Positions 3,243 through 44,326 of a DNA stretch of 64,000 bases are shown piece by piece. Origin of the DNA: a virus; the IMG/VR virus record IMGVR_UViG_3300038560_000007, positions 15,615 to 79,614 of that record, one strand, 5' to 3'. A program made the translations under genes and the position numbers. Positions within the stretch are counted from its first letter, which is position 1. Each line of letters opens with the position of its first letter. Below the pieces are notes generated by a model. That model saw nothing but the letters and a program-made list of their open reading frames with translations, was not told where the DNA came from and ran no database searches.

Positions 3243-3493
3243 TGGAGGGGACTTTGCAACACAGTGCGAAGAGAGGTCGGCCAGCCCTGTATGACTGGGA
3301 CTACCTGATCGAGAGGTCCCTGAAGCACACGGAGGAGCATGACTTCGTTCAAGGCGAAAACTTCCTATGCACGCCAGACTCTTTCGCTTCCCTTGTCCGA
3401 AGGACCGCACGCGTTCGTCACCTAGACGCTGGCGTGAGCATCGATGGAGATCATGTATACTTCATCTTCCTCCCGGAAAGAAAAAGATCCTAG
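3242..3493 (+). CDS. Small putative DNA-binding protein (RGRP-x-Y-x-WD family, paralog of 55378 and 55613)
   Basis: RGRPALYDWD ... QGENF ... SF ... VYFIF aligns by eye with the two genes at 55.4-55.9 kb. Confidence 0.6.
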   Translation: MEGTLQHSAKRGRPALYDWDYLIERSLKHTEEHDFVQGENFLCTPDSFASLVRRTARVRHLDAGVSIDGDHVYFIFLPERKRS

Positions 3494-3501
3494 CGTAGGG
3501 G

Positions 3502-3535
3502 CCTAGCTTTCCACATGAGTCTCGCTATATAATAG
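3502..3535 (+). promoter_or_regulatory. Class I phage promoter (CCTWG-N19-TATATAATAG)
   Basis: CCTAG-19 nt-TATATAATAG; identical spacing at 5 intergenic sites. Confidence 0.85.
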
Positions 3536-3560
3536 ACTTATAATTGAATTTGATAAAGCT

Positions 3561-4082
3561 CCTGGCTCGGACGTTGGGCGTATGCCTGGCCCCCCGTAGG
3601 CATGCGTTTGTTCTGCGAGGGCGTTCGAGCCAGGTTAAGCAGGGTGGTGGGGAGTAGTGACCCCCGAGACGCCTTACACTGAGACGTCGAAGTTGCATGG
3701 GAGCGGGTTTGATGACCTCGCCATGAGAGCCACCCGTCGACGGGCTCCTGGGCTGAAAGCCCGTGACGTTGGAGAAGGCGACACGGTCAAGTACGACAGG
3801 AGCCCACCAAAGTGAGTGCCTGCGATCCTCGGCGTTCGGGAACGAGCATCCGGATGGGTGGAGGTAAGGGCAGGGCGGTGGGCCGCCAGAGAAACCGCCC
3901 TGGAGGGTTCGAGTGAGGATGATCCTCGCCACCAGGCACTCACCCAAGCGCTCGACCTAGCAAGTCACGTACCCCATGCGTGCGCCGCGCCCCCCGATCG
4001 CGGCTGGCTGACCTAGGTCGAGTGAGGCCCTGGCCGGGAGATATGCGAGCTTCCCACGCTATGCTACCTCTCCTGACCAGGG
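3561..4082 (+). ncRNA. Large structured non-coding RNA or array of six multibranched RNA domains (family unassigned)
   Basis: Six consecutive closing helices (3561-3634, 3642-3735, 3742-3805, 3812-3943, 3949-4024, 4028-4082), each with internal hairpins and many G-U pairs; lies directly after a promoter; no convincing ORF. Confidence 0.8.
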
Positions 4083-4106
4083 TACCTATATCTAGAGAGG
4101 ACGGAA

Positions 4107-4238
4107 ATGAAGATCGGTTGTTGGCCAAGCGTGGCACTGGGAGCTCTTGGAGGGCTCACAGTTCTCATGGGACTCAAGGTCTGGAAGACGATAAGGAGGT
4201 CGAAGGATGCCGACCGTCTTGTGCGCGGAGTGCGGTAA
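4107..4238 (+). CDS. 43-aa single-TM peptide (not in the ORF track)
   Basis: GAGAGG RBS; MKIGCWPSVALGALGGLTVLMGLKVWKTIRRSKDADRLVRGVR. Confidence 0.55.
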   Translation: MKIGCWPSVALGALGGLTVLMGLKVWKTIRRSKDADRLVRGVR

Positions 4239-4977
4239 GGCTGCGCCGTGCCCCGATGGACACTACGCAGTCGTAGACATCGCCGGGACGCAGATCGACT
4301 GGATCAAGAAGCTTCCGGAGACATCGTGGATTCCTGCCCTGAACTTGCTCAACGAACTGATCGGCATTGAGGCTAGCTATACGAACACGAACGAGAACGA
4401 CGTTCAGTTCGGCTACAGACCCTACCCGCTAGGCACGTTCGGCAGCCTACTCATGACTGCTCGCGCGAACGTCCAACAGGGCAACTGGGCAAGGCCGCGC
4501 TTCCTCGAGGTCGGATGTGGCCCTGGTACCAAGCTCGTTCTGGCCAACAAGGTCTTCGGCCTCGAAGTCTCTGGCTTCGACGTTGACGCGCAATACATCA
4601 AGGACGCTGCGGATCTCCTAGTCAGCCAGACACTCATAGACTTCCAGGTCAGGGTCGACGACGCAGAGGACTTCGACGACTATGGTCTGTTCGACATCGT
4701 CTTCCTGAATCGTCCACTGCGTGACTACGACCGCCAGCTCCAGCTGGAACAGCACGTCATGAGTCGAATGGGGAACGGGGCAGTCCTGATCCTCGCCAAC
4801 TCGCTGACGCACCCTCCATACTGGAAGTGCCTACAGCAAGCAGTCGCTTGCTCTGTCTACCAGAAGACCTGTCGCTGTTACGAAGCCGAGAGCTATCTGA
4901 CCTTTCCTGGAGACCAGGCTAACCTAGTGTCATGCAAGCTCTGTGGCCGAGTACTCTGGGCTACAGGACCCAGCTAG
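4207..4977 (+). CDS. Class I SAM-dependent methyltransferase with terminal Cys motifs
   Basis: Motif I FLEVGCGPG, GFDVD, DDAE, FDIVFLNRP; CxxC-type motifs at both ends; GGAGG RBS. Confidence 0.85.
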   Translation: MPTVLCAECGKAAPCPDGHYAVVDIAGTQIDWIKKLPETSWIPALNLLNELIGIEASYTNTNENDVQFGYRPYPLGTFGSLLMTARANVQQGNWARPRFLEVGCGPGTKLVLANKVFGLEVSGFDVDAQYIKDAADLLVSQTLIDFQVRVDDAEDFDDYGLFDIVFLNRPLRDYDRQLQLEQHVMSRMGNGAVLILANSLTHPPYWKCLQQAVACSVYQKTCRCYEAESYLTFPGDQANLVSCKLCGRVLWATGPS

Positions 4978-5002
4978 GTCTTGAAAAAATCCTCATTGGG
5001 GG

Positions 5003-5075: not shown

Positions 5076-5561
5076 ATGGCGGGCGTTAAGGAAGCAGAGA
5101 AGAAGGTCGAAGAGAAGGCTGAAAAGGCCACCAAGCACAAGGTGCCCGAAGGTCACATCACTCCGGTCGAGGCTACTCATCGACTCAAGAAGGAGACCAA
5201 CCCGAAGACCGGGAAGCCCTACGCCGAGGACAAGCTGACCAGCCAGCAGGTCTACACACTACTCCGCACGTCGGAGAGCAACGGCATGCCGGTGAAGCAC
5301 TTCACCCCAGACGGCAAGTCTCACAAGACTCGTCAGGTCGATGGCGAGGGCAACCTCATCTCGCGTCCCGGATTCAACTGGGACGAGCTCGCTGCGTGGT
5401 GGGCCGATCGTCCGGCGCGTGGATCCAAGAAGGCCAAGGACGAGGAGAAGAGCGGCGGCGAGGCCTCTGACGAGGCGGACGGCGACGACTCCGAGGACGA
5501 GATCGACGAGGACGAGCTCGAGGACGACGGCGAAGAGGGCTCGCTCATCGAGGCCGAGTAG
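5076..5561 (+). CDS. Hypothetical protein with a basic body and a highly acidic C-terminal tail (possible DNA-binding protein)
   Basis: First gene after a promoter; K-rich N-terminus and D/E-rich tail. Confidence 0.75.
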   Translation: MAGVKEAEKKVEEKAEKATKHKVPEGHITPVEATHRLKKETNPKTGKPYAEDKLTSQQVYTLLRTSESNGMPVKHFTPDGKSHKTRQVDGEGNLISRPGFNWDELAAWWADRPARGSKKAKDEEKSGGEASDEADGDDSEDEIDEDELEDDGEEGSLIEAE

Positions 5562-5571
5562 TTCTCTGAAC

Positions 5572-5678
5572 GCCTGGCTCGGGCGACGTTACGAAGGACG
5601 AGAGCGGCATCCTAGGATACTGCCGGCTATGATAGAACCTCGTACCGATGTGTGGTCAGTGGAGGCTCCGAGCCAGGT
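5572..5678 (+). ncRNA. Structured RNA element sharing its closing helix with domain A of the 3.56 kb array
   Basis: GCCTGGCTCGGG/TCCGAGCCAGGT stem enclosing ACGAG/CTCGT and CGGCA/TGCCG helices; intergenic. Confidence 0.6.
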
Positions 5679-5712: not shown

Positions 5713-6081
5713 ATGGTACCAAAGATCTACGAGCAGGCCTGCGTCACCTATGCCGCAATGCTTGAAAGGTCTGAGCCTGCGAAGGAGCCTGGAAGCCCTC
5801 CCGTGTACAGAGGGTACATTACGTACCTGGTTGAGGAGCTCGGCTTCGGCATCTCACACTACACTGTCATCATGCGTCGGCTTGTGGCAATGGGTTGTAT
5901 CAACCAGCTAGTAGCGGGCGGACGCGCTGTGCCCAGCGAGTGGGAGATGCTACACGAACCAACTCCGGCACTGTTCGCAGCGAACAGTGGCAGGAAGCAC
6001 AGCCGAATCGACGACCTGGAGAAGAGAGTCGCTCAGCTCGAGGAAGAGATGGAACGAGACCCGGAGGAGCAGGCTTCCTAG
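5713..6081 (+). CDS. Winged-helix-like DNA-binding protein with a C-terminal coiled coil
   Basis: AGGAGG RBS; LVEELGFGISHYTVIMRRLVAMGCI-wing pattern; IDDLEKRVAQLE. Confidence 0.65.
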   Translation: MVPKIYEQACVTYAAMLERSEPAKEPGSPPVYRGYITYLVEELGFGISHYTVIMRRLVAMGCINQLVAGGRAVPSEWEMLHEPTPALFAANSGRKHSRIDDLEKRVAQLEEEMERDPEEQAS

Positions 6082-6368
6082 TGGCTAGAACAAACGAAGA
6101 GTTGAAGGCATACGTCGGCTTCATGCTGGAATGCCCTCGCGAAGATGTCCTAGGCTTTGCTCTCGTTGTCGTCAAGACAGATAGTAACGTCGCTATCCTG
6201 TCTAATGGCAACAAATACCAAGTTTCAGACCTGTTGGAGAGTGCAAGAGATACCATCTTTAACATAACGGAGGAGGAATACCTCAGTGGCAAGCAAGGAC
6301 CAGAAGGGCCAGAATCCTTTCAATCCGAACTGGAACAGCACGTTCCTGAGACTCAACCAGAACTGTGA
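6081..6368 (+). CDS. Hypothetical protein
   Basis: GTG overlaps the previous TAG; GGAGG upstream. Confidence 0.55.
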   Translation: MARTNEELKAYVGFMLECPREDVLGFALVVVKTDSNVAILSNGNKYQVSDLLESARDTIFNITEEEYLSGKQGPEGPESFQSELEQHVPETQPEL

Positions 6369-6627
6369 GGACTGGAAGGTTCCGAGTGATCACCGAGGCG
6401 TAACCTTCGAGGAGTGGGTGGAAGGACTACCGCTTCAACTCAACCGCGAAGAGATTACGCTTGCTGAGTCAGCCTGGAGGGCTTCGATTACACATCACAC
6501 GGCAACGCTTCGTCGCATCGGCTGGATTGATCAGAAGGGTCGCGTCTGGCTAGAGGTTCCTTCCGCGAAGGACTTCGATGGCGGAAGCCTCACGCCTTTG
6601 CTAGTTGACGTTCGAGGCGATGACTAA
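6286..6627 (+). CDS. Hypothetical protein
   Basis: GGAGGAGG RBS before GTG; TAATG coupling. Confidence 0.55.
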   Translation: MASKDQKGQNPFNPNWNSTFLRLNQNCEDWKVPSDHRGVTFEEWVEGLPLQLNREEITLAESAWRASITHHTATLRRIGWIDQKGRVWLEVPSAKDFDGGSLTPLLVDVRGDD

Positions 6628-6833: not shown

Positions 6834-8230
6834 AGCCCTATCCGTTTCAGCAAGAGCTCATCGACTTTCTAGGCGACCCTGAGAAGAAGGGCCGTCTTAT
6901 CGGCGATGACATGGGCCTAGGTAAGACCCTCGAAGGCCTCGCCATCGACAAGAAGCTCCGTCAGCGCGTCAAGGGTCGCCGGAAGACTCTGATCATCGCA
7001 CCTCGACAAACACATGAGGAGCCGTGGGCTGAGACCATCCAGGAGTTCTTGGGTGCAAAGGCTTGCGTCATAGACCGAAAGAACCGAGCTCCGTTCCTCA
7101 GGGCGATTACGTCTAACGACGGTGAGTACGAGTACTTCGTTTGTCACTACGAAGCATTGCGTTTGATGCCACAGCTAAAGCAAGTCCCGTTGTTCCATCT
7201 GATCCTGGATGAGACTCACCGGATCAAGAACCGTAAGGCCCAAGTCACTCGCACTGTCAAGGGCTATAGCACGGTCTACAAGACTTCGATGTCAGGTACG
7301 CCTGCAGACGACAAGCCACAAGACCTCTGGTCGACGCTGAACTTCCTGTACCCGGGACGCTACCCTTCGTACAACCGATTCGTTCAAGAGTACTGCCTAA
7401 CCGAGCCACTCCAGATTCGGAGTCGCTTCGGAGGCATGATGACTGTGAACAAGGTTATCGGAGCGAACCCCAATACCGTGCCGAAGCTTCTGGAGGGCAT
7501 GAAGCCCTTCTACATGCGGAGGCTCAAGGAAGAAGTCCTCAGAGATCTCCCGGACAAGTATTATTCCCGGATCCTGGTCGATCTACCCTCGCCTCAGCGA
7601 AAGATCTACGACGATCTTCGCGAAGAGATGCTGGCCTGGATCGGAGAGCATGAGGACCAACCTCTTCAGGTCGCACTTGTCGTAACACAGCTCGTACGAC
7701 TCCAGCAGGCAGCTCTGGCTACACTAGAGTTCGACGAGAACGGTAAGGTTCGTCTGATCGAACCCTCAGCTAAGCTGGACTCTCTAGTCGAGGTTATACA
7801 GGACGAGAGTGTTCATCCCTTTGTCGTCTTCTCCCAGAGCAAGTCAATGATCAACCTAGCAGCCACTAGACTGGCTAAGGAAGGTCTACGCGTCGCTAAG
7901 TTCCATGGCGACGTGCGGGATGCTGATCGACTAGATGCCGTACGAGGCTTCAAGGCAGGTAAATACGACGTCTTCGCATCGACGATCGCTGCCGGCGGTG
8001 AAGGCATCGACCTGACTCGAGCCTGCACGGAGTTCTTCTTCGACCGTTCTTGGAGTCCATCCAAGAACAGGCAGGCGGAAGACCGCTGTCATCGAGTGAC
8101 ACAGAAGAATGCAGTTCAGGTTATCGATCTGGTCGCTAGAGACTCCGTCGACCAGCGCGTGCGTGAAACGAATATTCACAAGTGGACACAGCTCCGCACA
8201 ATTCTAGGAGACAGCAGACGTGGTAGATGA
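6830..8230 (+). CDS. SNF2-family (DEAD/DEAH-like) helicase
   Basis: GDDMGLGKT, LILDETHRIKN, SMSGTP, GGEGIDLT, QAEDRCHR motifs. Confidence 0.95.
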   Translation: MKPYPFQQELIDFLGDPEKKGRLIGDDMGLGKTLEGLAIDKKLRQRVKGRRKTLIIAPRQTHEEPWAETIQEFLGAKACVIDRKNRAPFLRAITSNDGEYEYFVCHYEALRLMPQLKQVPLFHLILDETHRIKNRKAQVTRTVKGYSTVYKTSMSGTPADDKPQDLWSTLNFLYPGRYPSYNRFVQEYCLTEPLQIRSRFGGMMTVNKVIGANPNTVPKLLEGMKPFYMRRLKEEVLRDLPDKYYSRILVDLPSPQRKIYDDLREEMLAWIGEHEDQPLQVALVVTQLVRLQQAALATLEFDENGKVRLIEPSAKLDSLVEVIQDESVHPFVVFSQSKSMINLAATRLAKEGLRVAKFHGDVRDADRLDAVRGFKAGKYDVFASTIAAGGEGIDLTRACTEFFFDRSWSPSKNRQAEDRCHRVTQKNAVQVIDLVARDSVDQRVRETNIHKWTQLRTILGDSRRGR

Positions 8231-10226: not shown

Positions 10227-10371
10227 GCAAGTCCCGTTCTGCACGCACAAGGACGACGACGGCGTCGAGGACTGCGGGGTTCGAATGATCAGGTTCCTGA
10301 ACCCGTTCCGCTTCGTCTGCCCACGCGGGCATGGCAATACGCATCGGCTCCTGCGCATTGTGGTTCGGTGA
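10210..10371 (+). CDS. Small putative Zn-binding protein
   Basis: C-x10-C ... CPRGH; stop overlaps the queE start. Confidence 0.45.
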   Translation: METTTKQVPFCTHKDDDGVEDCGVRMIRFLNPFRFVCPRGHGNTHRLLRIVVR

Positions 10372-11144
10372 TGTCAGACCTCTTGAACGTTAACGAAATC
10401 TTTGGCCCGACTATCCAGGGGGAAGGTCCGGCGACTGGAAGGCTGGCTGCCTTCGTTCGCCTGGCCAATTGCAACCTGACTTGTAAGTGGTGCGACACGC
10501 CATACACATGGGCCTTTACGTCCAACAAGGCAGGGCATCATCAGTCTGGGAAGCAGTACGACAAGGCTGAAGAGGTTCACTCTATGAACCCGCTCGAGAT
10601 CATGGAGCGCCTCCACGAGATCGTTCCGCCTCGGCAGAACCGATTTGGGTCGATCGGCAGGATCGGGACGCTCGTTGTCATCTCTGGAGGCGAGCCTCTT
10701 ATTCAGGCAGTCCCACTCCTGGCGCTAGCTAGGCTAATGTGGGCGCAAGGCTACACCGTCCACATTGAGACGGCAGGCACACGTTATCCAGGACAGCTAG
10801 CTAGCTTCGTCGACACGTTCGTCGTTTCTCCGAAGTTGGAGAACTCAGGCAACCTGATCGACAAGAGATTCAGGCCAGCCATCCTCCGAGAGTTTGCGAC
10901 GACGCTATCGAACCAGACCTGGTTCAAGTTCGTCGTAGAGGGAGTAGCCGACCTCAAAGAGGTCGACTACATCGTGAATGAATGCAACATCCGACGCGAC
11001 CGAGTAATGATCATGCCCGAAGGTACCAAGACGGACAAGATCATCGCGAAGGCCCAAGAGATCGTCGTGGACGTCCTGGGAAGGGGCTACGGTCTCACTC
11101 TACGAAACCATGTCTTTATCTGGGATGACGTGAGGGCACACTAG
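10371..11144 (+). CDS. queE: 7-carboxy-7-deazaguanine synthase (radical SAM)
   Basis: EIFGPTIQGEG, FVRLANCNLTCKWCDT, ISGGEPL, IETAG, VSPKL, MPEG, RNHV. Confidence 0.95.
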   Translation: MSDLLNVNEIFGPTIQGEGPATGRLAAFVRLANCNLTCKWCDTPYTWAFTSNKAGHHQSGKQYDKAEEVHSMNPLEIMERLHEIVPPRQNRFGSIGRIGTLVVISGGEPLIQAVPLLALARLMWAQGYTVHIETAGTRYPGQLASFVDTFVVSPKLENSGNLIDKRFRPAILREFATTLSNQTWFKFVVEGVADLKEVDYIVNECNIRRDRVMIMPEGTKTDKIIAKAQEIVVDVLGRGYGLTLRNHVFIWDDVRAH

Positions 11145-12427: not shown

Positions 12428-12428
12428 T

Positions 12429-12490
12429 AGCTAGCGTTCCAGGGTCAAGCTGGAAGCGAGAGCCTCCAGCTTGGCTCTGGGATACTAGTT
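12429..12490 (+). terminator. Long hairpin after the secreted-protein gene (terminator or processing site)
   Basis: TTCCAGGGTCAAGCTGGA / TCCAGCTTGGCTCTGGGA with G-U pairs and a GAGA loop. Confidence 0.6.
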
Positions 12491-17043: not shown

Positions 17044-17094
17044 CGAGGTCGGCGGCCAGATGATTTTGGATGCCCTCCTTGCATCTGGCCGCCT

Positions 17095-17165
17095 CGGGAG
17101 GTAGCTTAATGGCAGAGCAGGCAGAGGCGCCACCATGGATCCGGGTTCGAGTCCCGGCCTCCCAC
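17095..17165 (+). tRNA. tRNA-like element with intact acceptor, D and T arms but no pairable anticodon arm
   Basis: GGGAGG/CCTCCC acceptor, GCTT-AATGGCA-GAGC D arm, CCGGG-TTCGAGT-CCCGG T arm; GGCAG/ACCAT does not pair and there is no U33. Confidence 0.7.
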
Positions 17166-17291: not shown

Positions 17292-17834
17292 ATGTACCGC
17301 ATATCAAAGAAGTTCGAGTTCAGTGCAGATCACGCACTCAAAGGACTTCCTCCGGAGCACCAGTGCTCTAGGTTCCATGGACATAACTACGTAGTTGACG
17401 TAGTGCTCGAGTCGGCCGTTCTAAATGAGGCCGACTTCGTTCGAGACTACGGTGAACTCAGTCCAATCAAGGATTGGATCAACAAGACGCTCGATCATCG
17501 CTGGCTTGGCTGGGGAATGATCGCTCGCCTAGAAGGTACGGAGCCATGTACGGAGCCATGTACGGAGTGCGAGAACGGCCCCTGGCACGTTAGCCAGATT
17601 ACTAAGCCTGTTCTTGATTTCAACCCGACGGCCGAGAACATGGCGAAGTTCATCTACACCTTCGCCTGTACGATTGCACCCGAAGTCTCCATGGTCGGAG
17701 TGAGTGAGACACCGAAGACGTGGGCCTGGTACACCCCAAACAACCTCACGCTCGACGTCTTAGAGCACGCGGTAGCTACGTTGCCTCAACCTCTCAGGAC
17801 CAGCTTCCGCGCCGCGCTTAGGGACAATACATGA
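17292..17834 (+). CDS. queD: 6-carboxy-5,6,7,8-tetrahydropterin synthase
   Basis: FEFSADH, CSRFHGHNY, DYGEL, LDHR, NPTAENMA, VSETPKTWA. Confidence 0.95.
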   Translation: MYRISKKFEFSADHALKGLPPEHQCSRFHGHNYVVDVVLESAVLNEADFVRDYGELSPIKDWINKTLDHRWLGWGMIARLEGTEPCTEPCTECENGPWHVSQITKPVLDFNPTAENMAKFIYTFACTIAPEVSMVGVSETPKTWAWYTPNNLTLDVLEHAVATLPQPLRTSFRAALRDNT

Positions 17835-18427
17835 CATCACCCTCCTGGTCTACATCGATGCCGCTTCTAGCAGATGCTTCTCCTGAAGAACTCATCCACG
17901 AGTTCCTGATGAAGACCTGCCCTGACATCTACAATCCTGACTCGGAGCATTTCAGGGACACTCCGAGACGCTTCACCAAGATGATTACGGAGCTCACTTC
18001 CTCGGAGGACTTCAAGTTCACTACCTTCGAGGCTTCGGCCAGTGAGATGGTAATCGTTCGCGCGATCAACTTCGTCAGTATGTGTGCACATCACATCGCG
18101 CCGTTCGTCGGGACCTGCCATGTCGGTTATATCCCTGCAGAGAAGGTCGCTGGCATTTCGAAGTTCTCCAGGCATGTCAGACAGTACGCACACACTCTGA
18201 CTAACCAGGAGGCGCTGACGACGAACATCGCAGACTCGCTCGATGATATCCTGGAGCCTCGCGGTGTCGCCGTCATCATGCAGGCAAGCCACTCGTGTAT
18301 GAGTACACGCGGGGCGCTGGCTCATGGATCCGATACGGTGACTAGCGCTATGCGAGGCGTGTTCATCGATCACACCAAGACGGCCAAGTCCGAGTTCATG
18401 GCTATCGTAGGTCCGAAGCTCCAATGA
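17831..18427 (+). CDS. folE: GTP cyclohydrolase I
   Basis: DTPRR, SMCAHHIAPF, GISKF, QEALT, HSCMSTRG, TSAMRG. Confidence 0.95.
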   Translation: MTSPSWSTSMPLLADASPEELIHEFLMKTCPDIYNPDSEHFRDTPRRFTKMITELTSSEDFKFTTFEASASEMVIVRAINFVSMCAHHIAPFVGTCHVGYIPAEKVAGISKFSRHVRQYAHTLTNQEALTTNIADSLDDILEPRGVAVIMQASHSCMSTRGALAHGSDTVTSAMRGVFIDHTKTAKSEFMAIVGPKLQ

Positions 18428-20785: not shown

Positions 20786-23464
20786 TTGACTACTGAGGCC
20801 CTAGAAGTACATCTAGATCCCAAACGCCTCGCTGCTACCGCTCTAGGCGCAAACTGCGCTGGCTGTCCAATGAACGACAACCGAGAGTACGGCTGCGTTA
20901 GCTCAACAGGTCCGCAGAAGGCAGACATTGGCGTCGTAGGGCAGAACCCTGGCCAGCAGGAGATCAGGACTGGCAAGCCTTTCATGGGACCTTCGGGTCG
21001 ACTACTCGACCAAGTACTGAAGCACTACAATCTAGATCGTTCAAAGATGTTCATAACGAACGCCTGCCTTTGCGTACATCGGAACGAGAACATCACACCG
21101 CCAGCTGCTGCAGTCGCCGCATGCCGACCTAGACTCATTAACGAATTGCGAGGCCGAGATGTCAAGCAAGTCATCAACCTCGGAAAGGTCCCAGCTCAAG
21201 GACTCTTCGGAGTCAGAGATTCGATCACCTCACTTCGGGTGGGCTCATTCCGAGAGGTGTACGACCTGCCAGGCGTACAAGTCTATTCTACGTTCCACCC
21301 TGCAGCTTGTCTTCGTAGTTCCGGATTCTTCCCTAGCCTTGTTGCTGATTTTGGTAAGCTTGTCAATCCACCTCCACCTTGGCGGGAACCTCAGTTCGTG
21401 GTATGGGAAGATCCTCATACCGCTATACGAGGCATCCGAGAGATGGAGCGCAGACATATTGATGTCATCACTCTCGACCTCGAGTGGGCAACACCTTTCG
21501 ACAAGGACGTCTCTTTCGATCACCCTTACCGATACAAGCTCCTCTGTATCGGCATGGCATACGCAACAGATAAGGCAGTCATCATTGGCAAGACAGCAAG
21601 CCAGTCGATCGCGGTACTAGAGGTACTCCGGCAGTACCTGTCGACCTGCAAAAAGATCGTCTGCCAAAACGGGAAGTCGGACAAGCAGGGCGCGTACGCC
21701 AAGGGCTTCAACTTTGACTTCACCGATGACACCATGCTGTCGAACTACGTTATGGACGAAAGGCCAAGCATCCATGGACTCAAGGTTCAGCTGGAGGAGA
21801 AACTCGGATACCCTCGTTACGGGGATGAGATCAAGCAGTACCTCGGAAAAGGAAAGGCCAGGTCCTTTGCTAACATCCCCCTGGATATCCTGTATCGTTA
21901 CAACGCGTTCGACACGTGTGGAACTTTCGCTCTCGAGGAGCACAACGGAAAGCTACTGGCTAGCGACGACTGGGCCGAACCGATACGGCCTCGAGCTGAC
22001 GGTGAACGCTGGGGCCTTGTTCGTCTTCACAGCTTCCATGTCGAGACGGCCAACAACCTCGCATACGTTGAGCTCAACGGTTTTCCCGTTGACCTAGAAT
22101 GCAACGCCAAGCTGACTGAGAAGTACGACACGATCCTCGCCGGGCTCGAGCAGAACATGTTCGACGCGCTAGCAGGCGTTCGGGAGGATCCGAAGTTCAA
22201 TCCTAGATCCCCTCAACAGTTGAAGAAGATCTTTGCCGAGCTAGGTGTTCCGCTCCCTAAGGTTCGTCGACCTAACGGAACGATGTCGGAGACGACAGAC
22301 GCAGCGACGCTGAACGACCTGTATGACAAGTACAGATCGATGAAGCAGGTCACACTACAGGCACACATCCTCGACTCGGAAGATAACGCTCTCGGTCCCG
22401 AGGTGGCTGAAGTCGAAACGCGATCAGTCGAAGTACGATTTCTCGAAGCGCTACTGGCTTATCGCAAGGCGGCTAAGACGAACGGCACGTACGTTCGAGG
22501 ACTGAAAAAGCATGTCTGGAAAGGTCGCGTCTTCCCGACCGTAATGATCCACTCCACCGTCTCTGGGCGTACGAGCCAGAAGAAGCCATCGCTTCAGGTC
22601 ATCCCTCACGCCGACGAGATCAAGCGACAGTTCGTCGTGTCCGATTATCACCAGTGGAAGTATGGCTGGAAGCCTCATGAGGACTATCACCTGCTAGCCG
22701 AGTTCGACTTCAAGCAGATCGAACTGCGAGTCCTCACGTGGCTCGCGGAAGAGGATTACTTCCGAGACATCTTCGAAGATCCTAGTCGGGACTTGTTTAC
22801 GGAGCTAGCGGACGTCGTCCACCCTGAGCGTTCATCTAGGACGACAATGCATAAGAAGGACAGGCGTAACATCGTGAAGGCGTTTGTCTACGGACTCGCT
22901 TACGGTCGCGAGGCTGGATCGATCGCCGACGAGTTCAATATTCCTCTCCGGGAAGCCCAACGCATGCAGCGAGAGTTCTTCCAGGTCATTCCGAAGGTTG
23001 CAGCCTTCCGAGAGCAGGTCAAGTGGGCAGCTACGTCTCAGGACGACTTGGTAACTCCGTTCGGCAGGCGCAGACGATTCATGCTTGTTACCAGTGAGAA
23101 CAAGAAGGACATTCAGAATGAAGCACTGTCATTCTATCCGCAGTCGATCGCGAGTGACATTTGCATCCAGGCCTTTGATTGGTTGCGGCCTAAGCTCAAA
23201 GGCGTTGCGTGGTGTCGCAATCTTGTTCACGACGCCTTGTTCTGGGAATTTCGCGAAGCCGATCTCGAGTACGTTGCCAACACAGTCATCACCACTATGC
23301 GTGAATCAGCCCGACGGGTCATGGGAGACTACGTACGAATCGATGTAGATGCCGAAGTGGGGCGAACCTGGGGAGACCTAATTAGCCTGGAGGAGTGGAG
23401 AGAAGGAAAGCGACCTTACCCGACATCGATAGTAAAGTGGGAACCAAGTGAACGAGCCAGCTAG
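20786..23464 (+). CDS. polA: Family A DNA polymerase with an N-terminal family-4 UDG-like domain and a 3'-5' exonuclease
   Basis: UDG: CAGC, VGQNPG, PFMGPSG, TNACLC, FHPAA; Exo: LDLE, QNGKSD, YNAFD; Pol: DFKQIELR, RNIVKAFVYGLAYG, LVHD. Confidence 0.95.
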   Translation: MTTEALEVHLDPKRLAATALGANCAGCPMNDNREYGCVSSTGPQKADIGVVGQNPGQQEIRTGKPFMGPSGRLLDQVLKHYNLDRSKMFITNACLCVHRNENITPPAAAVAACRPRLINELRGRDVKQVINLGKVPAQGLFGVRDSITSLRVGSFREVYDLPGVQVYSTFHPAACLRSSGFFPSLVADFGKLVNPPPPWREPQFVVWEDPHTAIRGIREMERRHIDVITLDLEWATPFDKDVSFDHPYRYKLLCIGMAYATDKAVIIGKTASQSIAVLEVLRQYLSTCKKIVCQNGKSDKQGAYAKGFNFDFTDDTMLSNYVMDERPSIHGLKVQLEEKLGYPRYGDEIKQYLGKGKARSFANIPLDILYRYNAFDTCGTFALEEHNGKLLASDDWAEPIRPRADGERWGLVRLHSFHVETANNLAYVELNGFPVDLECNAKLTEKYDTILAGLEQNMFDALAGVREDPKFNPRSPQQLKKIFAELGVPLPKVRRPNGTMSETTDAATLNDLYDKYRSMKQVTLQAHILDSEDNALGPEVAEVETRSVEVRFLEALLAYRKAAKTNGTYVRGLKKHVWKGRVFPTVMIHSTVSGRTSQKKPSLQVIPHADEIKRQFVVSDYHQWKYGWKPHEDYHLLAEFDFKQIELRVLTWLAEEDYFRDIFEDPSRDLFTELADVVHPERSSRTTMHKKDRRNIVKAFVYGLAYGREAGSIADEFNIPLREAQRMQREFFQVIPKVAAFREQVKWAATSQDDLVTPFGRRRRFMLVTSENKKDIQNEALSFYPQSIASDICIQAFDWLRPKLKGVAWCRNLVHDALFWEFREADLEYVANTVITTMRESARRVMGDYVRIDVDAEVGRTWGDLISLEEWREGKRPYPTSIVKWEPSERAS

Positions 23465-40753: not shown

Positions 40754-43700
40754 TTAATCTATGTTCAGTACCCCCGCATACATAGCGGGAAGCTCTCCCG
40801 TACCAGTAGAGTTAACCTGCACCCAGGCATAGTACGTCCCCGCGGTCAGGCCTGTATTCGGAATGAGCGCCAGGTACGGAGGCTGAACAGAGTTCGTCCC
40901 CCATGTTCCTCCAATCCACTGCCCCGAAGTAGGCTCACCTGTCACGTCAGGAGACCCCATCCCTGGAGGCGGCGTAGTCAGGAACGCACCCTTCACAGGG
41001 AGAGATGAAAGGACTACACCTAGAGGCCCCCACACGTTGATGGCGATGTTCTGTTGTGATACCAAAAAGACCGACGCTGTTGATGTCATAAGCTTAGCCT
41101 CCCAAATTCCGCTCGTTAGCTCGGCTGTCCATGTACAAGGCACGATTCTCGCCTCCCAAAGCGACGCCTGGATTATCGACACCCAGGGTGTTCCCTCAAG
41201 CTCTGTAGTCGACGTGACCACCGCAGTAGCCGAAAGATACCCCATGCCTGTCAAAAGGGCTGTCGATGCTATGTTCGATGTGACTAGGGCCTGTGACGTA
41301 AGGTTACCTACACCAGTTAGCGTCGTCCCACTAAGGAAGTTCACGACAGGTTGAGCCGTTAGAGTGCCCAACCCAACTAGAGTAGCCGCCCCGGGCAGAC
41401 CTGTAATGCTCTGCGAAGTCAACGAGCCTATACCCGACATAGTCAACGCACCGAGGAAGTTCACTACAGGCTGAGTCGTCAGAGCCCCTATACCTGAAGT
41501 CACGCCCGCCGTAAGGAAGTTCACGATAGGCTGCGTGGTAAGCGTACCGGCACCGCTCAACACCGCAACCGAAAGGAAGTTAGCTAGCGCCTGAGAAGTC
41601 AAAGATCCTGTTCCGGTAAGGACTGATGCGTCTAGGAAGTTCACTACAGGCTGCGACGTAAGAGTGCCCGTGCCCGATACCGAAGCTGTTGCCGAGAAGG
41701 AACCGCTAACCGACGCATTGGCTGTAAGCGAGCCTATACCAGATAGCAACGCCGTCTCTAGGAAGTTCACAACAGGCTGAGACGTTAGCGCACCGAGACC
41801 TGACATGGATGAAGTCATCAGGAAGTTGACTACAACCTGTGACGTCAAAGACCCTGCGCCACTTATGCTCGCTGCGGTTAGGAAGTTCACAACAGGCTGA
41901 GACGTTAGCGTCCCCAGACCTACAAGGGCCGCCGCCTGATACATATTGACACTCGGCTGAGCTGTCAAGGTACCTAGGCCAGACATCGAAGACGCACCGA
42001 GGAAGTTAACTACCGGCTGTGAGGTAAGCGTTCCAATGCCTGAGAACGATGCTGCATCCTTGAAGTTCACTACCGGCTGGGACGTAAGCGACCCTAGTCC
42101 ACTAAGAGCCGCGTTGCCAAAGAGGTTAACGACCGGCTGAGCCGTTAGCGTACCAGCCCCAGTCATCGAAGAACTCTCGAAGAAGTTCACGACAGGCTGC
42201 GACGTAAGCGACCCTATGCCAGTCAGCGCCGCGTTGCCAAAGAAGTTCACGATAGGTTGTGAAGTAAGAGAACCGGTTCCGGATATTGTCCCTGCCGAAA
42301 CAAAGTTCACTACGGGCTGAGTAGTCAGCGTACCTGAACCGTTCAGCGAAGCGGTAGCGTTAAACGAACCACTAGTAGACACCGTAGCGCTCAGAGATCC
42401 TGTACCTACCAAGGACGCAGTCTCTAGGAAGTTCACCACAGGCTGACTGGTCAGACCCCCCATGCCAGACAGGGACGCAGCCTCAATGAAGTTAGCGACT
42501 GGCTGCGACGTCAGAGTTCCCGAACCGCTTAGACTGGCATTACCGAAGAAGTTAACAACAGGCTGAGCAATCAACAAGCCGGAACCGCTCAAAGACGCTG
42601 TCGAAGCAAAGTTGATGACAGGCTGAGCAGTAAGCAGCCCACTGCCAGAGAGAGACGCTACCTCTAGGAAGTTCACCACAGGCTGAGCCGTTAGAGACCC
42701 GCTGCCAGACAGAATCACACTAACCTGAGCATACGCCTTCAACGAGCCCGTACCAGACAGAGCAGCAGCACCTAGGAAGTTCATTACAGGCTGAGCCGTT
42801 AGAGACCCTGCCCCGCTGAGTGACGCCGTCTCAAGGAAGTTGACTACCGGCTGTGACGTTAGCAAACCGGAACCACTAATACTAGCCGCGGTAAGGAAGT
42901 TGACTACCGGCTGAGACGTCAACAACCCAGAGCCACTAAGCGCTACAGCAGTTAGGAAGTTTATGACTGGCTGCGCAGTAAGGGAACCAACGCCCGATAG
43001 TGCAGCCGCGCCTTCTACACCCACAGTCCACAACGCTGTAAGCGATCCAGAGCCTGACAGCGAAGAAGTCTCTATGAAGCTAACGACAGGCTGAGATGTC
43101 AGACCTCCTGAGCCACTAAGGCTCGACGCCTCTAGGAAGTTAACGACAGGCTGAGACATCAAGACGCCAGAGCCAGACAGCGACGCAGCATCCTCAAGAT
43201 TGACTACAGGCTGTGCGCTAAGAGAGCCTGACCCTGATAGCGAGGCAGTCTCTACGAAGTTAACGACCGGCTGATCCGTTAGAGCACCCGCACCGCTGAG
43301 GCTTGACGCCTCAACCTCGTTGACGACCGGCTGAGACGTAAGAGAACCTGAGCCCGAGATCGCCGCTGCGCCTAGGAAGTTTACGACCGGCTGCGCAGTA
43401 AGCTGTCCGCTACCACTAATAGACGCGCCTGAAGGGAAGCCTACAGTCGTCGGAGGAGCAACAGCTTGGAACTTGGTCGGAGTCGGCTCCCACTGCTTCC
43501 GAACCTTATGAAGACCCGAGAGGACTGGAGGTCCCGCGACAGGACCCGCCGCAGCCTTGAACGCGAACAGGCCGGTAGCGCTATAGTTCGTCGTGCCGAA
43601 CGTCACTGAGTACGACGTCGCAGCATTAGACGTAGCGGTCTGGTACGAGGTAATGCCCCAGATCTCACTGCCGGTATAACAGGTCTGATTAGCCTCATTC

Positions 43701-44326
43701 GTCCAGCCCGATGCCGGGCCGTTCAGCGCTGTCGTGAAGTAGCCGAGACTCAGACCAATCAGGAAGTCAGTTGAGGTAGCAAACGTCCCAGTCGTGCCCG
43801 ACGTCTCCGGCGAGGTGCCAGTGCTTGAGCTATACCCGGTCGCCTTACTCGCGCTGTCGTAGCTACCTGTAGCCAGCAGACCGTTGACCTCATAGACCCA
43901 ACACTCGGAGTAGACCGTGCCGGTCGAGAAGGTGACCGTGAAGGTTGTCTGGCCTCCAGACATGGAGTCTTTGGACAGCGTACCGATGTAGGCAACCAGG
44001 CCGCCGGCTGCCTCGGTGAAGCCATTGTTAGTCAGCGAGGTCGAACCGCAGGTCGCTGAGACCGTAGTACTACTAGTCGACGTCTGGTAGATAACCGCGA
44101 TGATGATCGAATTACCGGCTTTAACTGCTGGGATAGTGCCAGACAGGGTCAGCCCAGCTGTCGTGCCGTTGGTCAACGGAGTGAGGTTGATCAGTGTCGG
44201 CCCAGCACCACCACCCTGGAGCCAAATTGGCATTCCGTTTTTACGATAACCAATAAGGTCACCGAACGTGGGCTTGCGGAATGGGTCAGCCAGAGTACGT
44301 CGGGCCGGCTCCAGGTCAACCGTCAC
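40754..44326 (-). CDS. Large repetitive fibre-like virion protein (20-aa repeats)
   Basis: More than 30 repeats of consensus QPVVNFLxAASLSGSGSLT[AS]; located between head and neck genes. Confidence 0.85.
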   Translation of the reverse strand: MTVDLEPARRTLADPFRKPTFGDLIGYRKNGMPIWLQGGGAGPTLINLTPLTNGTTAGLTLSGTIPAVKAGNSIIIAVIYQTSTSSTTVSATCGSTSLTNNGFTEAAGGLVAYIGTLSKDSMSGGQTTFTVTFSTGTVYSECWVYEVNGLLATGSYDSASKATGYSSSTGTSPETSGTTGTFATSTDFLIGLSLGYFTTALNGPASGWTNEANQTCYTGSEIWGITSYQTATSNAATSYSVTFGTTNYSATGLFAFKAAAGPVAGPPVLSGLHKVRKQWEPTPTKFQAVAPPTTVGFPSGASISGSGQLTAQPVVNFLGAAAISGSGSLTSQPVVNEVEASSLSGAGALTDQPVVNFVETASLSGSGSLSAQPVVNLEDAASLSGSGVLMSQPVVNFLEASSLSGSGGLTSQPVVSFIETSSLSGSGSLTALWTVGVEGAAALSGVGSLTAQPVINFLTAVALSGSGLLTSQPVVNFLTAASISGSGLLTSQPVVNFLETASLSGAGSLTAQPVMNFLGAAALSGTGSLKAYAQVSVILSGSGSLTAQPVVNFLEVASLSGSGLLTAQPVINFASTASLSGSGLLIAQPVVNFFGNASLSGSGTLTSQPVANFIEAASLSGMGGLTSQPVVNFLETASLVGTGSLSATVSTSGSFNATASLNGSGTLTTQPVVNFVSAGTISGTGSLTSQPIVNFFGNAALTGIGSLTSQPVVNFFESSSMTGAGTLTAQPVVNLFGNAALSGLGSLTSQPVVNFKDAASFSGIGTLTSQPVVNFLGASSMSGLGTLTAQPSVNMYQAAALVGLGTLTSQPVVNFLTAASISGAGSLTSQVVVNFLMTSSMSGLGALTSQPVVNFLETALLSGIGSLTANASVSGSFSATASVSGTGTLTSQPVVNFLDASVLTGTGSLTSQALANFLSVAVLSGAGTLTTQPIVNFLTAGVTSGIGALTTQPVVNFLGALTMSGIGSLTSQSITGLPGAATLVGLGTLTAQPVVNFLSGTTLTGVGNLTSQALVTSNIASTALLTGMGYLSATAVVTSTTELEGTPWVSIIQASLWEARIVPCTWTAELTSGIWEAKLMTSTASVFLVSQQNIAINVWGPLGVVLSSLPVKGAFLTTPPPGMGSPDVTGEPTSGQWIGGTWGTNSVQPPYLALIPNTGLTAGTYYAWVQVNSTGTGELPAMYAGVLNID
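41200..43430 (-). repeat. 60-bp-period coding repeat (boundaries approximate)
   Basis: Recurrent AGGAAGTT...ACAGGCTG/ACCGGCTG every 60 nt on the + strand. Confidence 0.85.

What the first reader, a model, noticed from the sequence alone, without database searches (positions are those of the whole stretch)
3561..4082. Promoter-driven array of six different multibranched RNA domains (candidate new large ncRNA or polycistronic RNA system)
Seen: about 25 nt after a class I promoter, roughly 520 nt with no credible ORF fold into six abutting domains separated by 3-7 nt linkers. A (3561-3634): 15-bp CCTGGCTCGGACGTT/GGCGTTCGAGCCAGG plus a 13-bp inner helix. B (3642-3735): GGGTGGT/GCCACCC cloverleaf with 3 hairpins. 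C (3742-3805): GGGCTCCTG/CAGGAGCCC followed by ACCA. D (3812-3943): GTGAGTGCCTG/CAGGCACTCAC followed by CCA, a 4-way junction. E (3949-4024): CGCTCGACCTAG/CTAGGTCGAGTG. F (4028-4082): CCCTGGCCGGGAG/CTCCTGACCAGGG. Non-Watson-Crick positions are mostly G-U on the + strand, which points to selection on RNA rather than DNA. Hairpins in A and E both carry GCCCCCCG, and C and D end like tRNA acceptor stems. Known: phages carry large structured ncRNAs (GOLLD, ROOL, Y RNAs) and RNA decoys, but I do not recognise this as any of them. Inference: either one large RNA or a precursor cut into several small decoy/aptamer RNAs, possibly for counter-defence.
Basis: partly seen in the sequence, partly recalled or inferred. 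Interest (0 to 1): 0.92.

Follow-up and report, generated by a model that had tools for sequence, protein, structure and literature searches.

The report
Phage array of six folded RNAs
A gene-free 520-base stretch behind a phage promoter most likely encodes six separately folding small RNAs, and related soil phages carry similar, fast-changing RNA arrays that match no catalogued RNA family and have no known job.

Summary
Window 3561-4082 has no credible ORF. It lies about 20 nt after the likely start site of a five-copy sigma-70-like promoter family. It folds into six stem-closed modules (closing-pair probabilities 0.76-1.0, all but one at least 0.9). Long stems are about 20 times denser here than in the rest of the genome, and the + strand folds better (z -3.4 against -1.2). 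Rfam 15 and ARAGORN find nothing.

I found no homologue of any of the six modules, so their own covariation is untested. The architecture, however, is shared across the clade. Distant relatives (35-48% protein identity) carry abutting module arrays of 0.3-1 kb between early genes. In orthologous array pairs, 37 varying base pairs keep pairing and 2 break it.

Array stems share an orientation-specific CCUG...CAGG motif. Modules A and F use a CCUGG/CCAGG "handle" that also sits at gene boundaries in this genome and in relatives. The CCA after C and D belongs to a clade-wide linker (YCAAAC/CCAAG).

Best reading: a polycistronic non-coding RNA array, probably cut into small RNAs. A decoy role is only a guess. 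The host is probably an actinobacterium. Unchecked notes from this scan describe similar phage RNA arrays on other DNA.

The parts
3498..3535 (+). Promoter of the five-copy family (GGGGCCTAGC...CTATATAATAG). The -10 TATAAT is at 3528-3533 and the likely start site is near 3540.
   Evidence: Family D8 has copies at 3498, 4999, 8982, 14230 and 58719. The same block precedes the homologous acidic-protein gene in L012 and L013. This is consensus-level evidence; no transcript data exist.
3561..3634 (+). Module A: a handle hairpin. A 15-bp lower stem (CCUGGCUCGGACGUU/GGCGUUCGAGCCAGG) is followed by a 10-nt one-sided internal loop and a 13-bp upper stem with a C6 loop.
   Evidence: z -4.95, against -3.11 on the - strand. 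It has 7 G-U pairs and no A-C. The handle recurs at window 5573-5677, at genome 14413-14514, and in L012 and L013.
3642..3735 (+). Module B: a cloverleaf-shaped four-way junction closed by 7 bp (GGGUGGU/GCCACCC).
   Evidence: z -2.25, weak. Closing-pair probability is 0.76-0.96. It has no T-loop motif and gives no tRNA hit.
3742..3809 (+). Module C: a 64-nt junction with three inner hairpins in the MFE fold, closed by GGGCUCCUG/CAGGAGCCC and followed by ACCA.
   Evidence: z -3.94. The same 9-bp stem sequence lies inside the L005 hairpin at 7847-7891. No exact-stem orthologue exists in IMG/VR.
3812..3946 (+). Module D: a 132-nt multibranched domain closed by 11 bp (GUGAGUGCCUG/CAGGCACUCAC) and followed by CCA. 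It has a GGAA tetraloop, and GGAGGUAAG is left unpaired.
   Evidence: The single-sequence model R1 finds only a weak match to the four-way-junction module L002:5394-5510 (19.5 bits, E 0.2). No exact-stem orthologue exists in IMG/VR.
3949..4024 (+). Module E: a three-way junction closed by 12 bp. Its second hairpin carries a C6 loop related to the one in A.
   Evidence: z -4.26. One search shows the 19-nt direct repeat shared with A.
4028..4082 (+). Module F: a variant handle hairpin (CCCUGGCCGGGAG/CUCCUGACCAGGG). It is the last module before the ribosome-binding site.
   Evidence: z -4.99. One search shows the first 5 bp, CCUGG/CCAGG, shared with 8 other handle elements.
4107..4977 (+). Downstream genes of the same putative transcription unit: a 43-aa hydrophobic ORF (4107-4238) and a SAM-dependent methyltransferase (4207-4977). 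The next promoter is at 4999.
   Evidence: No U-tract terminator follows F. In relatives the methyltransferase has no array upstream.
5573..5677 (+). A solitary handle element lying between the stop codon of the acidic-protein gene and the next ribosome-binding site. It is positionally equivalent to the first module of the L012 and L013 arrays.

Best explanation
The stretch is a real non-coding transcription unit. A strong host-type promoter drives a roughly 540-nt leader made of six RNA modules that fold independently. It is this phage's version of a feature shared by its clade of uncultivated peat and soil phages, whose host is probably an actinobacterium. These phages carry tandem arrays of stem-closed RNA modules between early and middle genes.

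Shown: the fold, its modularity, its excess over chance, the absence of coding signal, the + strand bias, the recurrence of the handle and of the CCUG...CAGG stem motif, and structure-preserving evolution of the equivalent arrays in relatives.

Inferred, about 50% likely: the precursor is cut at the module boundaries. The two CCUGG/CCAGG handle hairpins, A and F, resemble T7-type RNase III sites. The same handle stands alone between cistrons elsewhere in this genome. I read A and F as double-strand processing or insulating sites that free the array from the downstream mRNA. The A-rich linkers after C and D (ACCAAA, CCAAG) resemble the RNase E, RNase P and exonuclease trimming sites of polycistronic tRNA precursors. 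Cutting there would yield stable small RNAs of 60-135 nt, two of them ending in CCA.

Guess, about 20% likely: these RNAs act in trans by occupying a host protein. Candidates are a factor that recognises tRNA ends or a defence factor. Alternatively the C6 loops of A and E pair with G-rich RNA targets.
For: Fold and modularity.
Density of long stems: 5 observed against 0.28 expected.
No coding signal and no protein homologues.
Strand bias.
Promoter family.
Handle: recurs at three intergenic, + oriented sites in this genome and at the syntenic site in L012 and L013. The first 5 bp are invariant and the distal pairs covary across 9 elements from 6 phages.
Relatives: they carry abutting arrays with very low z-scores. 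L029 scores -8.2, L002 -5.9 and L005 -10.2.
Covariation: in 12 orthologous module pairs, 15 compensatory and 22 one-sided compatible changes stand against 2 disruptive ones. Unpaired sites are 37% substituted.
Stem motif: CCUG lies in the 5' arm of 15 of 33 array stems against 18 of 300 stems elsewhere, with only 2 of 33 in the reverse orientation.
Linkers: CCA or NCCA follows 8 of 35 closing stems, where about 1.2 are expected. The D-E linker CCAAG|CG is identical to one in L028.
Wider context: the genome also has four sub-threshold type II hammerhead hits between early genes, so processing between cistrons seems to be a theme.
Literature: RNase E cuts 1-3 nt after the encoded CCA and RNase P makes the 5' ends in polycistronic tRNA precursors (PMC2190699). 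RNase P also cuts the phage M3 and C4 RNAs and 4.5S RNA (PMC11143913).
Against: No homologue of any of the six modules was found by blastn, nhmmer, three covariance models or exact-stem scans. Their own helices therefore have no covariation support.
Modules B and D on their own are only weakly better than shuffles.
Fixed 120-nt windows in the region are not outliers against the genome background, which has mean z -0.67 and sd 1.3.
Several modules also fold on the - strand (z -1.6 to -3.65). The L028 and L029 arrays show no strand bias at all.
The promoter is known only by consensus.
No nuclease or RNA-binding partner was seen in about 30 ORFs scanned with Pfam.
The covariation counts use RNAalifold structures, which favour compatible pairs.
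The relatives' arrays contain tRNA-like modules with T-loops; this array has none.
Confidence: 0.6

Rival explanations
1. It is a cis-acting structured 5' leader of the small-peptide and methyltransferase operon. The modules stay attached to the mRNA and set its stability, translation or transcription elongation. No separate small RNAs are made.
For: No terminator lies between F and the ribosome-binding site at about 4094, so the array and the two ORFs form one unit. F ends 11 nt before the ribosome-binding site. Solitary handle hairpins sit just before ribosome-binding sites elsewhere. In relatives too the arrays end directly at a ribosome-binding site.
Against: 520 nt in six multibranched modules is far more than a stabiliser or translational switch needs. 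The methyltransferase is conserved in relatives without any array upstream. Array content is replaced wholesale between relatives while the downstream gene stays. That pattern does not suggest a regulator tuned to its gene.
Confidence: 0.18
2. It is a single large RNA with a tertiary architecture, like GOLLD, ROOL or OLE, and acts as one particle.
For: Its size and multi-domain shape fit. A GNRA tetraloop occurs in D, and the two related C6 loops in A and E could make long-range contacts. The handles A and F bracket the whole unit.
Against: No covariance-model match to any large RNA family was found, even at E up to 10. The modules close independently, with almost no predicted cross-domain pairing. 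Relatives gain, lose and swap modules, which a single integrated fold would not tolerate.
Confidence: 0.1
3. The stems act as DNA. They could be small palindromic mobile elements with terminal inverted repeats, single-strand DNA hairpins, or a replication or packaging signal.
For: The conserved closing arms look like terminal inverted repeats around variable interiors. CCTGG and CCAGG are themselves palindromic CCWGG sites. The L028 and L029 arrays fold equally well on both strands. G-T wobble pairs are also tolerated in single-strand DNA.
Against: All elements lie in the transcribed orientation in intergenic positions. The CCUG/CAGG motif is orientation-specific, 15 against 2. The + strand has the G-U excess. 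The relatives' arrays include tRNA-like modules with T-loop motifs, which make sense only as RNA. There are no iterons and no AT-rich stretch. The site is far from the terminase gene.
Confidence: 0.06
4. It is decayed sequence, such as a remnant of lost genes or of an old array, whose stems persist by chance or by G+C richness and have no present function.
For: No homologue of the modules was found. The relative L012 has small ORFs at the equivalent place. Window-based z-scores are unremarkable.
Against: Five long stems where 0.28 are expected. The arrangement is exact, with abutting modules and 3-7-nt linkers. The handle, stem motif and linker motif are shared with arrays that are under purifying selection in relatives. 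A dedicated strong promoter sits in front, in a compact phage genome.
Confidence: 0.06

Closest known systems
Intercistronic RNase III processing hairpins of T7-like phages (R0.3 to R18.5). This comparison rests on my own knowledge and was not tested here.
   Same: They are promoter-proximal or intercistronic hairpins of 50-75 nt, with two stems separated by an internal loop. They recur as a family along the early and middle transcripts. Module A and the solitary handle elements have this shape and this placement.
   Different: There is no sequence relation. Here the hairpins share a CCUGG/CCAGG base. They can enclose multibranched interiors and occur in tandem arrays with no genes between them. 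Cleavage has not been shown.
Polycistronic tRNA precursors and phage tRNA islands, including the stable non-tRNA RNAs of the T4 tRNA cluster, together with non-tRNA RNase P substrates of phages (P1/P7 C4 RNA, phi80 M3 RNA; PMC2190699, PMC11143913)
   Same: They are promoter-driven strings of small folded RNAs separated by a few nucleotides. CCA followed by A-rich spacers comes after some stems. Relatives place true tRNA-like modules with T-loops in the same arrays.
   Different: None of the six modules is called a tRNA by ARAGORN or by Rfam, even at E up to 10. None has an anticodon arm or a T-loop. The CCA is part of a longer linker motif.
Bacterial and phage Y RNAs (YrlA) bound by Rsr/Ro60
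   Same: A protein-binding closing stem carries a variable, tRNA-like module.
   Different: There is no Rfam match. No TROVE/Rsr gene was seen among the ORFs scanned, and only part of the genome was scanned. In the relatives the tRNA-like module sits beside the handle stem and not inside it.
GOLLD, ROOL and other large ornate phage or prophage RNAs
   Same: They are large, multi-domain, phage-borne RNAs of unknown function, often found beside tRNA genes.
   Different: There is no covariance-model match. The modules here are independent and are swapped between relatives.
6C small RNA of Actinobacteria. This comparison rests on my own knowledge.
   Same: It has two hairpins whose loops carry six or more cytosines, as in modules A and E. 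The host of this phage is probably an actinobacterium.
   Different: Rfam gives no 6C match in the region at E up to 10. The two hairpins lie 400 nt apart, in different modules.
Candidate structured RNAs predicted from IMG/VR (PMC10690425)
   Same: They come from the same data source and are the same kind of object.
   Different: I did not check whether this locus is in that list. The paper was only located, and its supplement was not read.

Membership tests
tRNA (Rfam RF00005) or tRNA-like structure | A cloverleaf with a 7-bp acceptor stem, D and T arms with conserved loops, and an anticodon arm, detectable by ARAGORN or by the covariance model. | tested here: not met
   ARAGORN finds 0 genes in the window. 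No tRNA match at E up to 10 in 3400-4250. B and C have a cloverleaf outline but no T-loop motif.
Any Rfam 15 family, including GOLLD, ROOL, OLE, raiA, HEARO, YrlA, 6C, 6S, self-cleaving ribozymes and riboswitches | A covariance-model score at or above the gathering threshold. | tested here: not met
   There are 0 hits at gathering threshold in the window. In the region only three chance-level hits appear, at E 1.2-4.8.
Clade-specific intercistronic RNA-module arrays (defined in this report) | Abutting stem-closed modules with linkers of about 0-9 nt, on the coding strand, lying between early or middle genes or between a promoter and a gene. | tested here: met
   for the window. for L002, L005, L012, L013 and L026-L029.
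Clade-specific intercistronic RNA-module arrays (defined in this report) | The 5'-CCUG...CAGG-3' motif in closing stems, and CCUGG/CCAGG handle hairpins at array or gene boundaries. | tested here: met
   A, C, D and F carry the motif. Enrichment is 15 of 33 against 18 of 300.
Clade-specific intercistronic RNA-module arrays (defined in this report) | Helices kept through compensatory change between orthologues. | tested here: inconclusive
   This is met for the relatives' arrays, with 37 preserving changes against 2 disruptive. No orthologue of the six window modules was found. Only the handle of A covaries with its paralogues.
Clade-specific intercistronic RNA-module arrays (defined in this report) | At least one anticodon-less tRNA-like module with a GGUUCGAnUCC T-loop. 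| tested here: not met
   Such modules are present in L012, L013, L026, L028 and L029, and in this genome at 17094-17162. None lies inside 3561-4082.
T7-type RNase III processing sites | A hairpin of about two helical turns with an internal loop, in a leader or intercistronic position. | tested here: met
   Module A has 15 bp, a one-sided 10-nt loop and 13 bp. The solitary handles lie between a stop codon and a ribosome-binding site.
T7-type RNase III processing sites | Cleavage by RNase III. | not testable with these tools
   This needs an in vitro or in vivo cleavage assay.
Y RNA / YrlA with Rsr | An Rsr/TROVE protein gene in the genome, and a YrlA-type fold. | tested here: inconclusive
   No YrlA match. 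No TROVE domain in about 30 ORFs scanned. The rest of the genome and the host were not scanned.
MITE- or REP-like palindromic DNA elements | Copies in both orientations, symmetric Watson-Crick arms, and insertion independent of transcription. | tested here: not met
   All copies are + oriented and intergenic. Motif orientation is 15 against 2. The G-U excess is on the + strand.
CRISPR array or RNA anti-CRISPR (repeat mimic) | Direct repeats of 25-40 nt with spacers. | tested here: not met
   The region holds only one 19-nt and one 10-nt two-copy direct repeat.

The most novel reading that the evidence does not exclude
The array and its counterparts in related phages form a new class of phage RNA island. 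Under this reading a dedicated factor, either host RNase III or an unidentified phage protein, recognises the CCUG:CAGG handle. It releases a fast-evolving set of small RNAs, some ending in CCA. These RNAs mimic tRNA acceptor arms, or display C-rich seed loops, to titrate host defence or RNA-processing proteins. That would make it an RNA counterpart of protein anti-defence islands, in phages that also punctuate their early operon with hammerhead ribozymes.
Probability: 0.15. Interest if true: 0.85.

Novelty: new variant of a known kind. Interest (0 to 1): 0.66.

Why it matters
Phage-encoded structured RNAs are far less charted than phage proteins. Here about 0.7% of a compact genome, and more than 1 kb in some relatives, is spent on promoter-driven RNA modules. 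These modules keep their helices but swap content between relatives, a pattern usually linked with host-virus conflict.

The shared handle (CCUGG/CCAGG), stem motif (CCUG...CAGG) and linker (YCAAAC/CCAAG) give concrete, testable processing signals. They also offer a search key for finding more such arrays.

Together with the hammerhead candidates in the early region, this phage group could serve as a model for RNA-level punctuation of phage operons. If the small RNAs prove to be decoys for tRNA-directed or RNA-directed host systems, that would add an RNA-based counter-defence strategy.

Tried and rejected
Search for the region itself. blastn against 50,697 phage records found no match. blastn and nhmmer against 23 related loci hit only the promoter.

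Covariance models. Single-sequence models of D, B+C and E+F were run over 424 kb of relatives. Nothing was significant. The best hit was L002:5394-5510 at 19.5 bits and E 0.2.

Exact-stem scans of IMG/VR. The A handle gave 10 hits, most of which look like chance matches inside coding sequence. L040, a 16-bp intergenic stem, is uncertain, and none shares sequence with the window. D gave 0 hits and C with ACC gave 0.

Anchor proteins. The methyltransferase has no relative above 50% identity. The single-sequence scan of viral contigs failed. Alignment-based scans gave L012-L025. The 188-aa upstream ORF gave nothing.

Sequencing runs. No RNA holder was listed. Contigs laid from four DNA runs (peat and soil) were short pieces identical to the window, with none covering 3552-4035 and no variants in the array. 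This gives no information on expression or covariation.

Other ideas rejected:
- A tmRNA-like tag: no suitable short ORF in the region.
- Hammerhead or other ribozymes inside the array: none.
- A replication origin: no iterons or AT-rich tract.
- G6 targets for the C6 loops within the phage: only two G6 runs, both inside genes.

The sliding 120-nt z-score scan covered only the first 28 kb of the genome and was noisy. The literature search for phage arrays of tRNA-like and hammerhead RNAs found nothing specific.

Full report
SETTING. The window is bases 15615-79614 of a 79.6-kb IMG/VR virus record with an estimated completeness of 90%. It was recovered from peat metagenomes. Genes in window 1-23.5 kb all run on the + strand. 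The phage encodes an SNF2 helicase, a family A DNA polymerase with a UDG-like N-terminus, terminase, portal and head proteins. It also encodes 7-deazaguanine pathway enzymes, a PD-(D/E)XK nuclease and an Lsr2-domain protein. The terminase is closest to those of Microbacterium and Streptomyces phages, at 40-44% identity. I therefore infer an actinobacterial host. No cultured relative exists.

THE OBSERVATION. In the partition function of the whole putative transcript (3536-4110), the closing pairs have probability 0.76-1.0, all but one at least 0.9. The only gap is the bulged column in F's split stem. Only 6.5% of expected pairs lie outside the six domains.

The + strand folds at -245 kcal/mol (z -3.36, 0 of 100 shuffles as good). 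The - strand folds at -221.5 kcal/mol (z -1.18). Per-domain z-scores on the + strand are -4.95, -2.25, -3.94, -2.38, -4.26 and -4.99, and most are weaker on the - strand.

A test that does not depend on chosen boundaries is to count Watson-Crick stems of at least 9 bp with a span of 30-145 nt. The genome has 42 of these, and 5 lie in these 522 nt where 0.28 are expected. The Poisson probability is about 1e-5.

Base composition predicts equal numbers of G-T and A-C mismatches. The observed counts are 23 G-U pairs in the + strand fold against 13 in the - strand fold. In the closing stems plus A's inner helix the counts are 10 against 1. That set of helices was chosen after the fact.

A caution applies. 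In a fixed 120-nt sliding scan the region is not an outlier, because the genome background itself has a mean z of -0.67.

NOT CODING. Every ORF inside the region has a negative or near-zero codon-usage score, whereas trained genes average +0.20. None has a credible Pfam or PHROGs match. One 66-aa ORF gave only a chance-level Pfam hit, at E 0.008 and 16 bits against a cut-off of 27. The longest ORF (140 aa, - strand) has no relative in the protein database. It is not even recorded there as a called gene, unlike the neighbouring methyltransferase.

PROMOTER. A 38-nt block, GGGGCCTwGC...CTATATAATAG, occurs five times in the window, each time ahead of + strand genes. The same block precedes the homologous acidic-protein gene in relatives L012 and L013. 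At this locus the -10 lies at 3528-3533, so module A begins about 20 nt after the likely start site. No U-tract terminator follows module F. The array, a 43-aa hydrophobic ORF and a SAM methyltransferase therefore form one putative transcription unit that ends at the next promoter, at 4999.

KNOWN FAMILIES. Rfam 15 gives nothing at gathering thresholds in the window. In the region it gives only three chance-level hits at E above 1. ARAGORN finds no tRNA or tmRNA.

THE HANDLE. The closing helix of A (CCUGGCUCGG.../...CGAGCCAGG) recurs at window 5573-5677 and at genome 14413-14514. Both copies lie between a stop codon and the next ribosome-binding site. The lead came from earlier notes of this scan, and I checked it here. 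F is a variant (CCCUGGCC.../...GACCAGGG).

The same handle opens the arrays of L012 and L013, directly after the homologue of the acidic-protein gene. That position is syntenic with 5573-5677. Related CCUGGG handles close the arrays of L027, L028 and L029. Across nine elements from six phages the first five pairs (CCUGG/CCAGG) never change. The pairs beyond them change while staying paired.

ARRAYS IN RELATIVES. The closest available relatives share only 35-48% protein identity. Many of them nonetheless carry abutting stem-closed modules on the coding strand between early genes:
- L002 has four modules at 5328-5643 (z -5.9).
- L005 has three.
- L012 and L013 have four.
- L026 and L027 have five or six.
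- L028 and L029 have about fifteen modules over about 1 kb (z -8.2).

Several contain anticodon-less tRNA-like modules with canonical T-loops, which only ARAGORN or sub-threshold Rfam scores pick up. This genome has one such module at 17094-17162.

In twelve orthologous module pairs (L028 with L029, and L012 with L013), 254 predicted pairs include 15 compensatory changes and 22 one-sided compatible changes, against 2 disruptive ones. Unpaired sites are 37% substituted. RNAalifold favours compatible pairs, so this overstates the case somewhat, but the direction is clear. Content turns over fast. L002 and L005 have different modules in front of the same downstream gene.

SHARED SIGNATURES. CCUG lies in the 5' arm, paired with CAGG, in 15 of 33 long array stems against 18 of 300 stems elsewhere (Fisher p 1e-8). 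Counting L028/L029 orthologues once gives p 2e-6. The reverse orientation occurs only twice. In the window, A, C, D and F carry the motif.

CCA or NCCA follows 8 of 35 closing stems, where about 1.2 are expected. It is part of a longer A-rich linker of the form YCAAAC or CCAAG. The D-E linker, CCAAG followed by CG, is identical to a linker in L028. They are a linker signature of the clade and not proof of tRNA mimicry.

The hairpins with C6 loops in A and E are 79% identical over 19 nt.

WHAT COULD NOT BE SHOWN. No homologue of modules B to F was found by sequence search, by three single-sequence covariance models or by exact-stem scans of IMG/VR. The only hints are two:
- A 19.5-bit match of D to the four-way-junction module of L002.
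- The identity of C's 9-bp stem with part of a hairpin in L005.

About 30 ORFs scanned with Pfam show no RNA-processing or RNA-binding partner.

INTERPRETATION. I am fairly confident (about 0.8) that this is a genuine structured non-coding RNA array of a clade-wide kind.

Processing into units is an inference (about 0.5). It rests on four things:
- The handle stands at gene boundaries.
- Module A resembles the two-stem RNase III sites of T7, a comparison from my own knowledge.
- The CCA-plus-A-rich linkers match the way polycistronic tRNA precursors are cut by RNase E, RNase P and exonucleases (PMC2190699), and the way RNase P cuts phage hairpin RNAs (PMC11143913).
- Four sub-threshold type II hammerhead hits lie between early genes of the same genome. 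This suggests that cutting between cistrons matters to this phage.

A trans-acting decoy or seed function is a guess (about 0.2). It is prompted by the rapid turnover of modules and by the C-rich loops.

The rivals are a purely cis-acting leader, one large integrated RNA, DNA-level palindromes and neutral decay. They are listed with their evidence in the rival explanations.

NOVELTY. No catalogued family matches, and I found no description in the searched literature. I did not check whether the locus is in the IMG/VR candidate list of PMC10690425. Earlier unchecked notes of this scan describe comparable strings of small folded RNAs in other phages, so the general kind is not new. The handle, stem motif and linker signatures, and the lack of any tRNA-like module in this array, make it a new variant.

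Noticed in passing
L011 (own genome, before the window) 3654-3710, 6010-6066, 6324-6383, 7583-7642, + strand: Four sub-threshold matches to the type II hammerhead ribozyme (26.9-35.9 bits against a gathering score of 37; E 3e-4 to 0.08).
   Followed up: partly
window 5573-5677 and L011 14413-14514: Solitary CCUGGCU...AGYCAGG handle elements with unrelated interiors. Each lies between a stop codon and the next ribosome-binding site, with shared flanks CUGAAC and UUUUGAGG.
   Followed up: yes
window 17051-17162: A 12-bp hairpin is followed by an anticodon-less tRNA-like module (acceptor GGGAGGU/GCCUCCC, a canonical D arm, and the T arm CCGGGUUCGAGUCCCGG). ARAGORN and Rfam do not call it.
   Followed up: partly
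L029 6447-7450 and L028 6399-7240: About 1 kb of some fifteen abutting RNA modules follows the acidic-protein gene. It includes four or five hairpins sharing the base ACGUCCUG...CAGGAC, a tRNA-like module, and a 102-nt module with a CCUGGG handle. Folding z is about -8.
   Followed up: partly
L026 6438-6518: ARAGORN calls a tRNA with anticodon UUA (it would read the UAA stop) as the first module of that phage's RNA array. Its anticodon stem is abnormally long and Rfam does not call it.
   Followed up: no
window 40754-44326 (- strand ORF, 1190 aa): The ORF contains more than twenty diverged 60-nt (20-aa) tandem repeats.
   Followed up: no
L011 8023-8565, 9516-10070, 6400-7572: These ORFs carry an Lsr2 dimerisation domain, a HIT domain and DUF3631. 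The Lsr2 domain points to an actinobacterial host.
   Followed up: no
window 10368-11144, 17292-18427, 20786-23464: A radical-SAM protein that may be QueE, a PTPS/QueD family protein and GTP cyclohydrolase I (7-deazaguanine pathway genes), and a family A DNA polymerase fused to a UDG-superfamily domain.
   Followed up: no
window 12428-12486: A near-perfect hairpin of about 20 bp lies directly after the stop codon of the 300-aa ORF. It gave the strongest 120-nt folding z-score (-8) in the part of the genome scanned.
   Followed up: no
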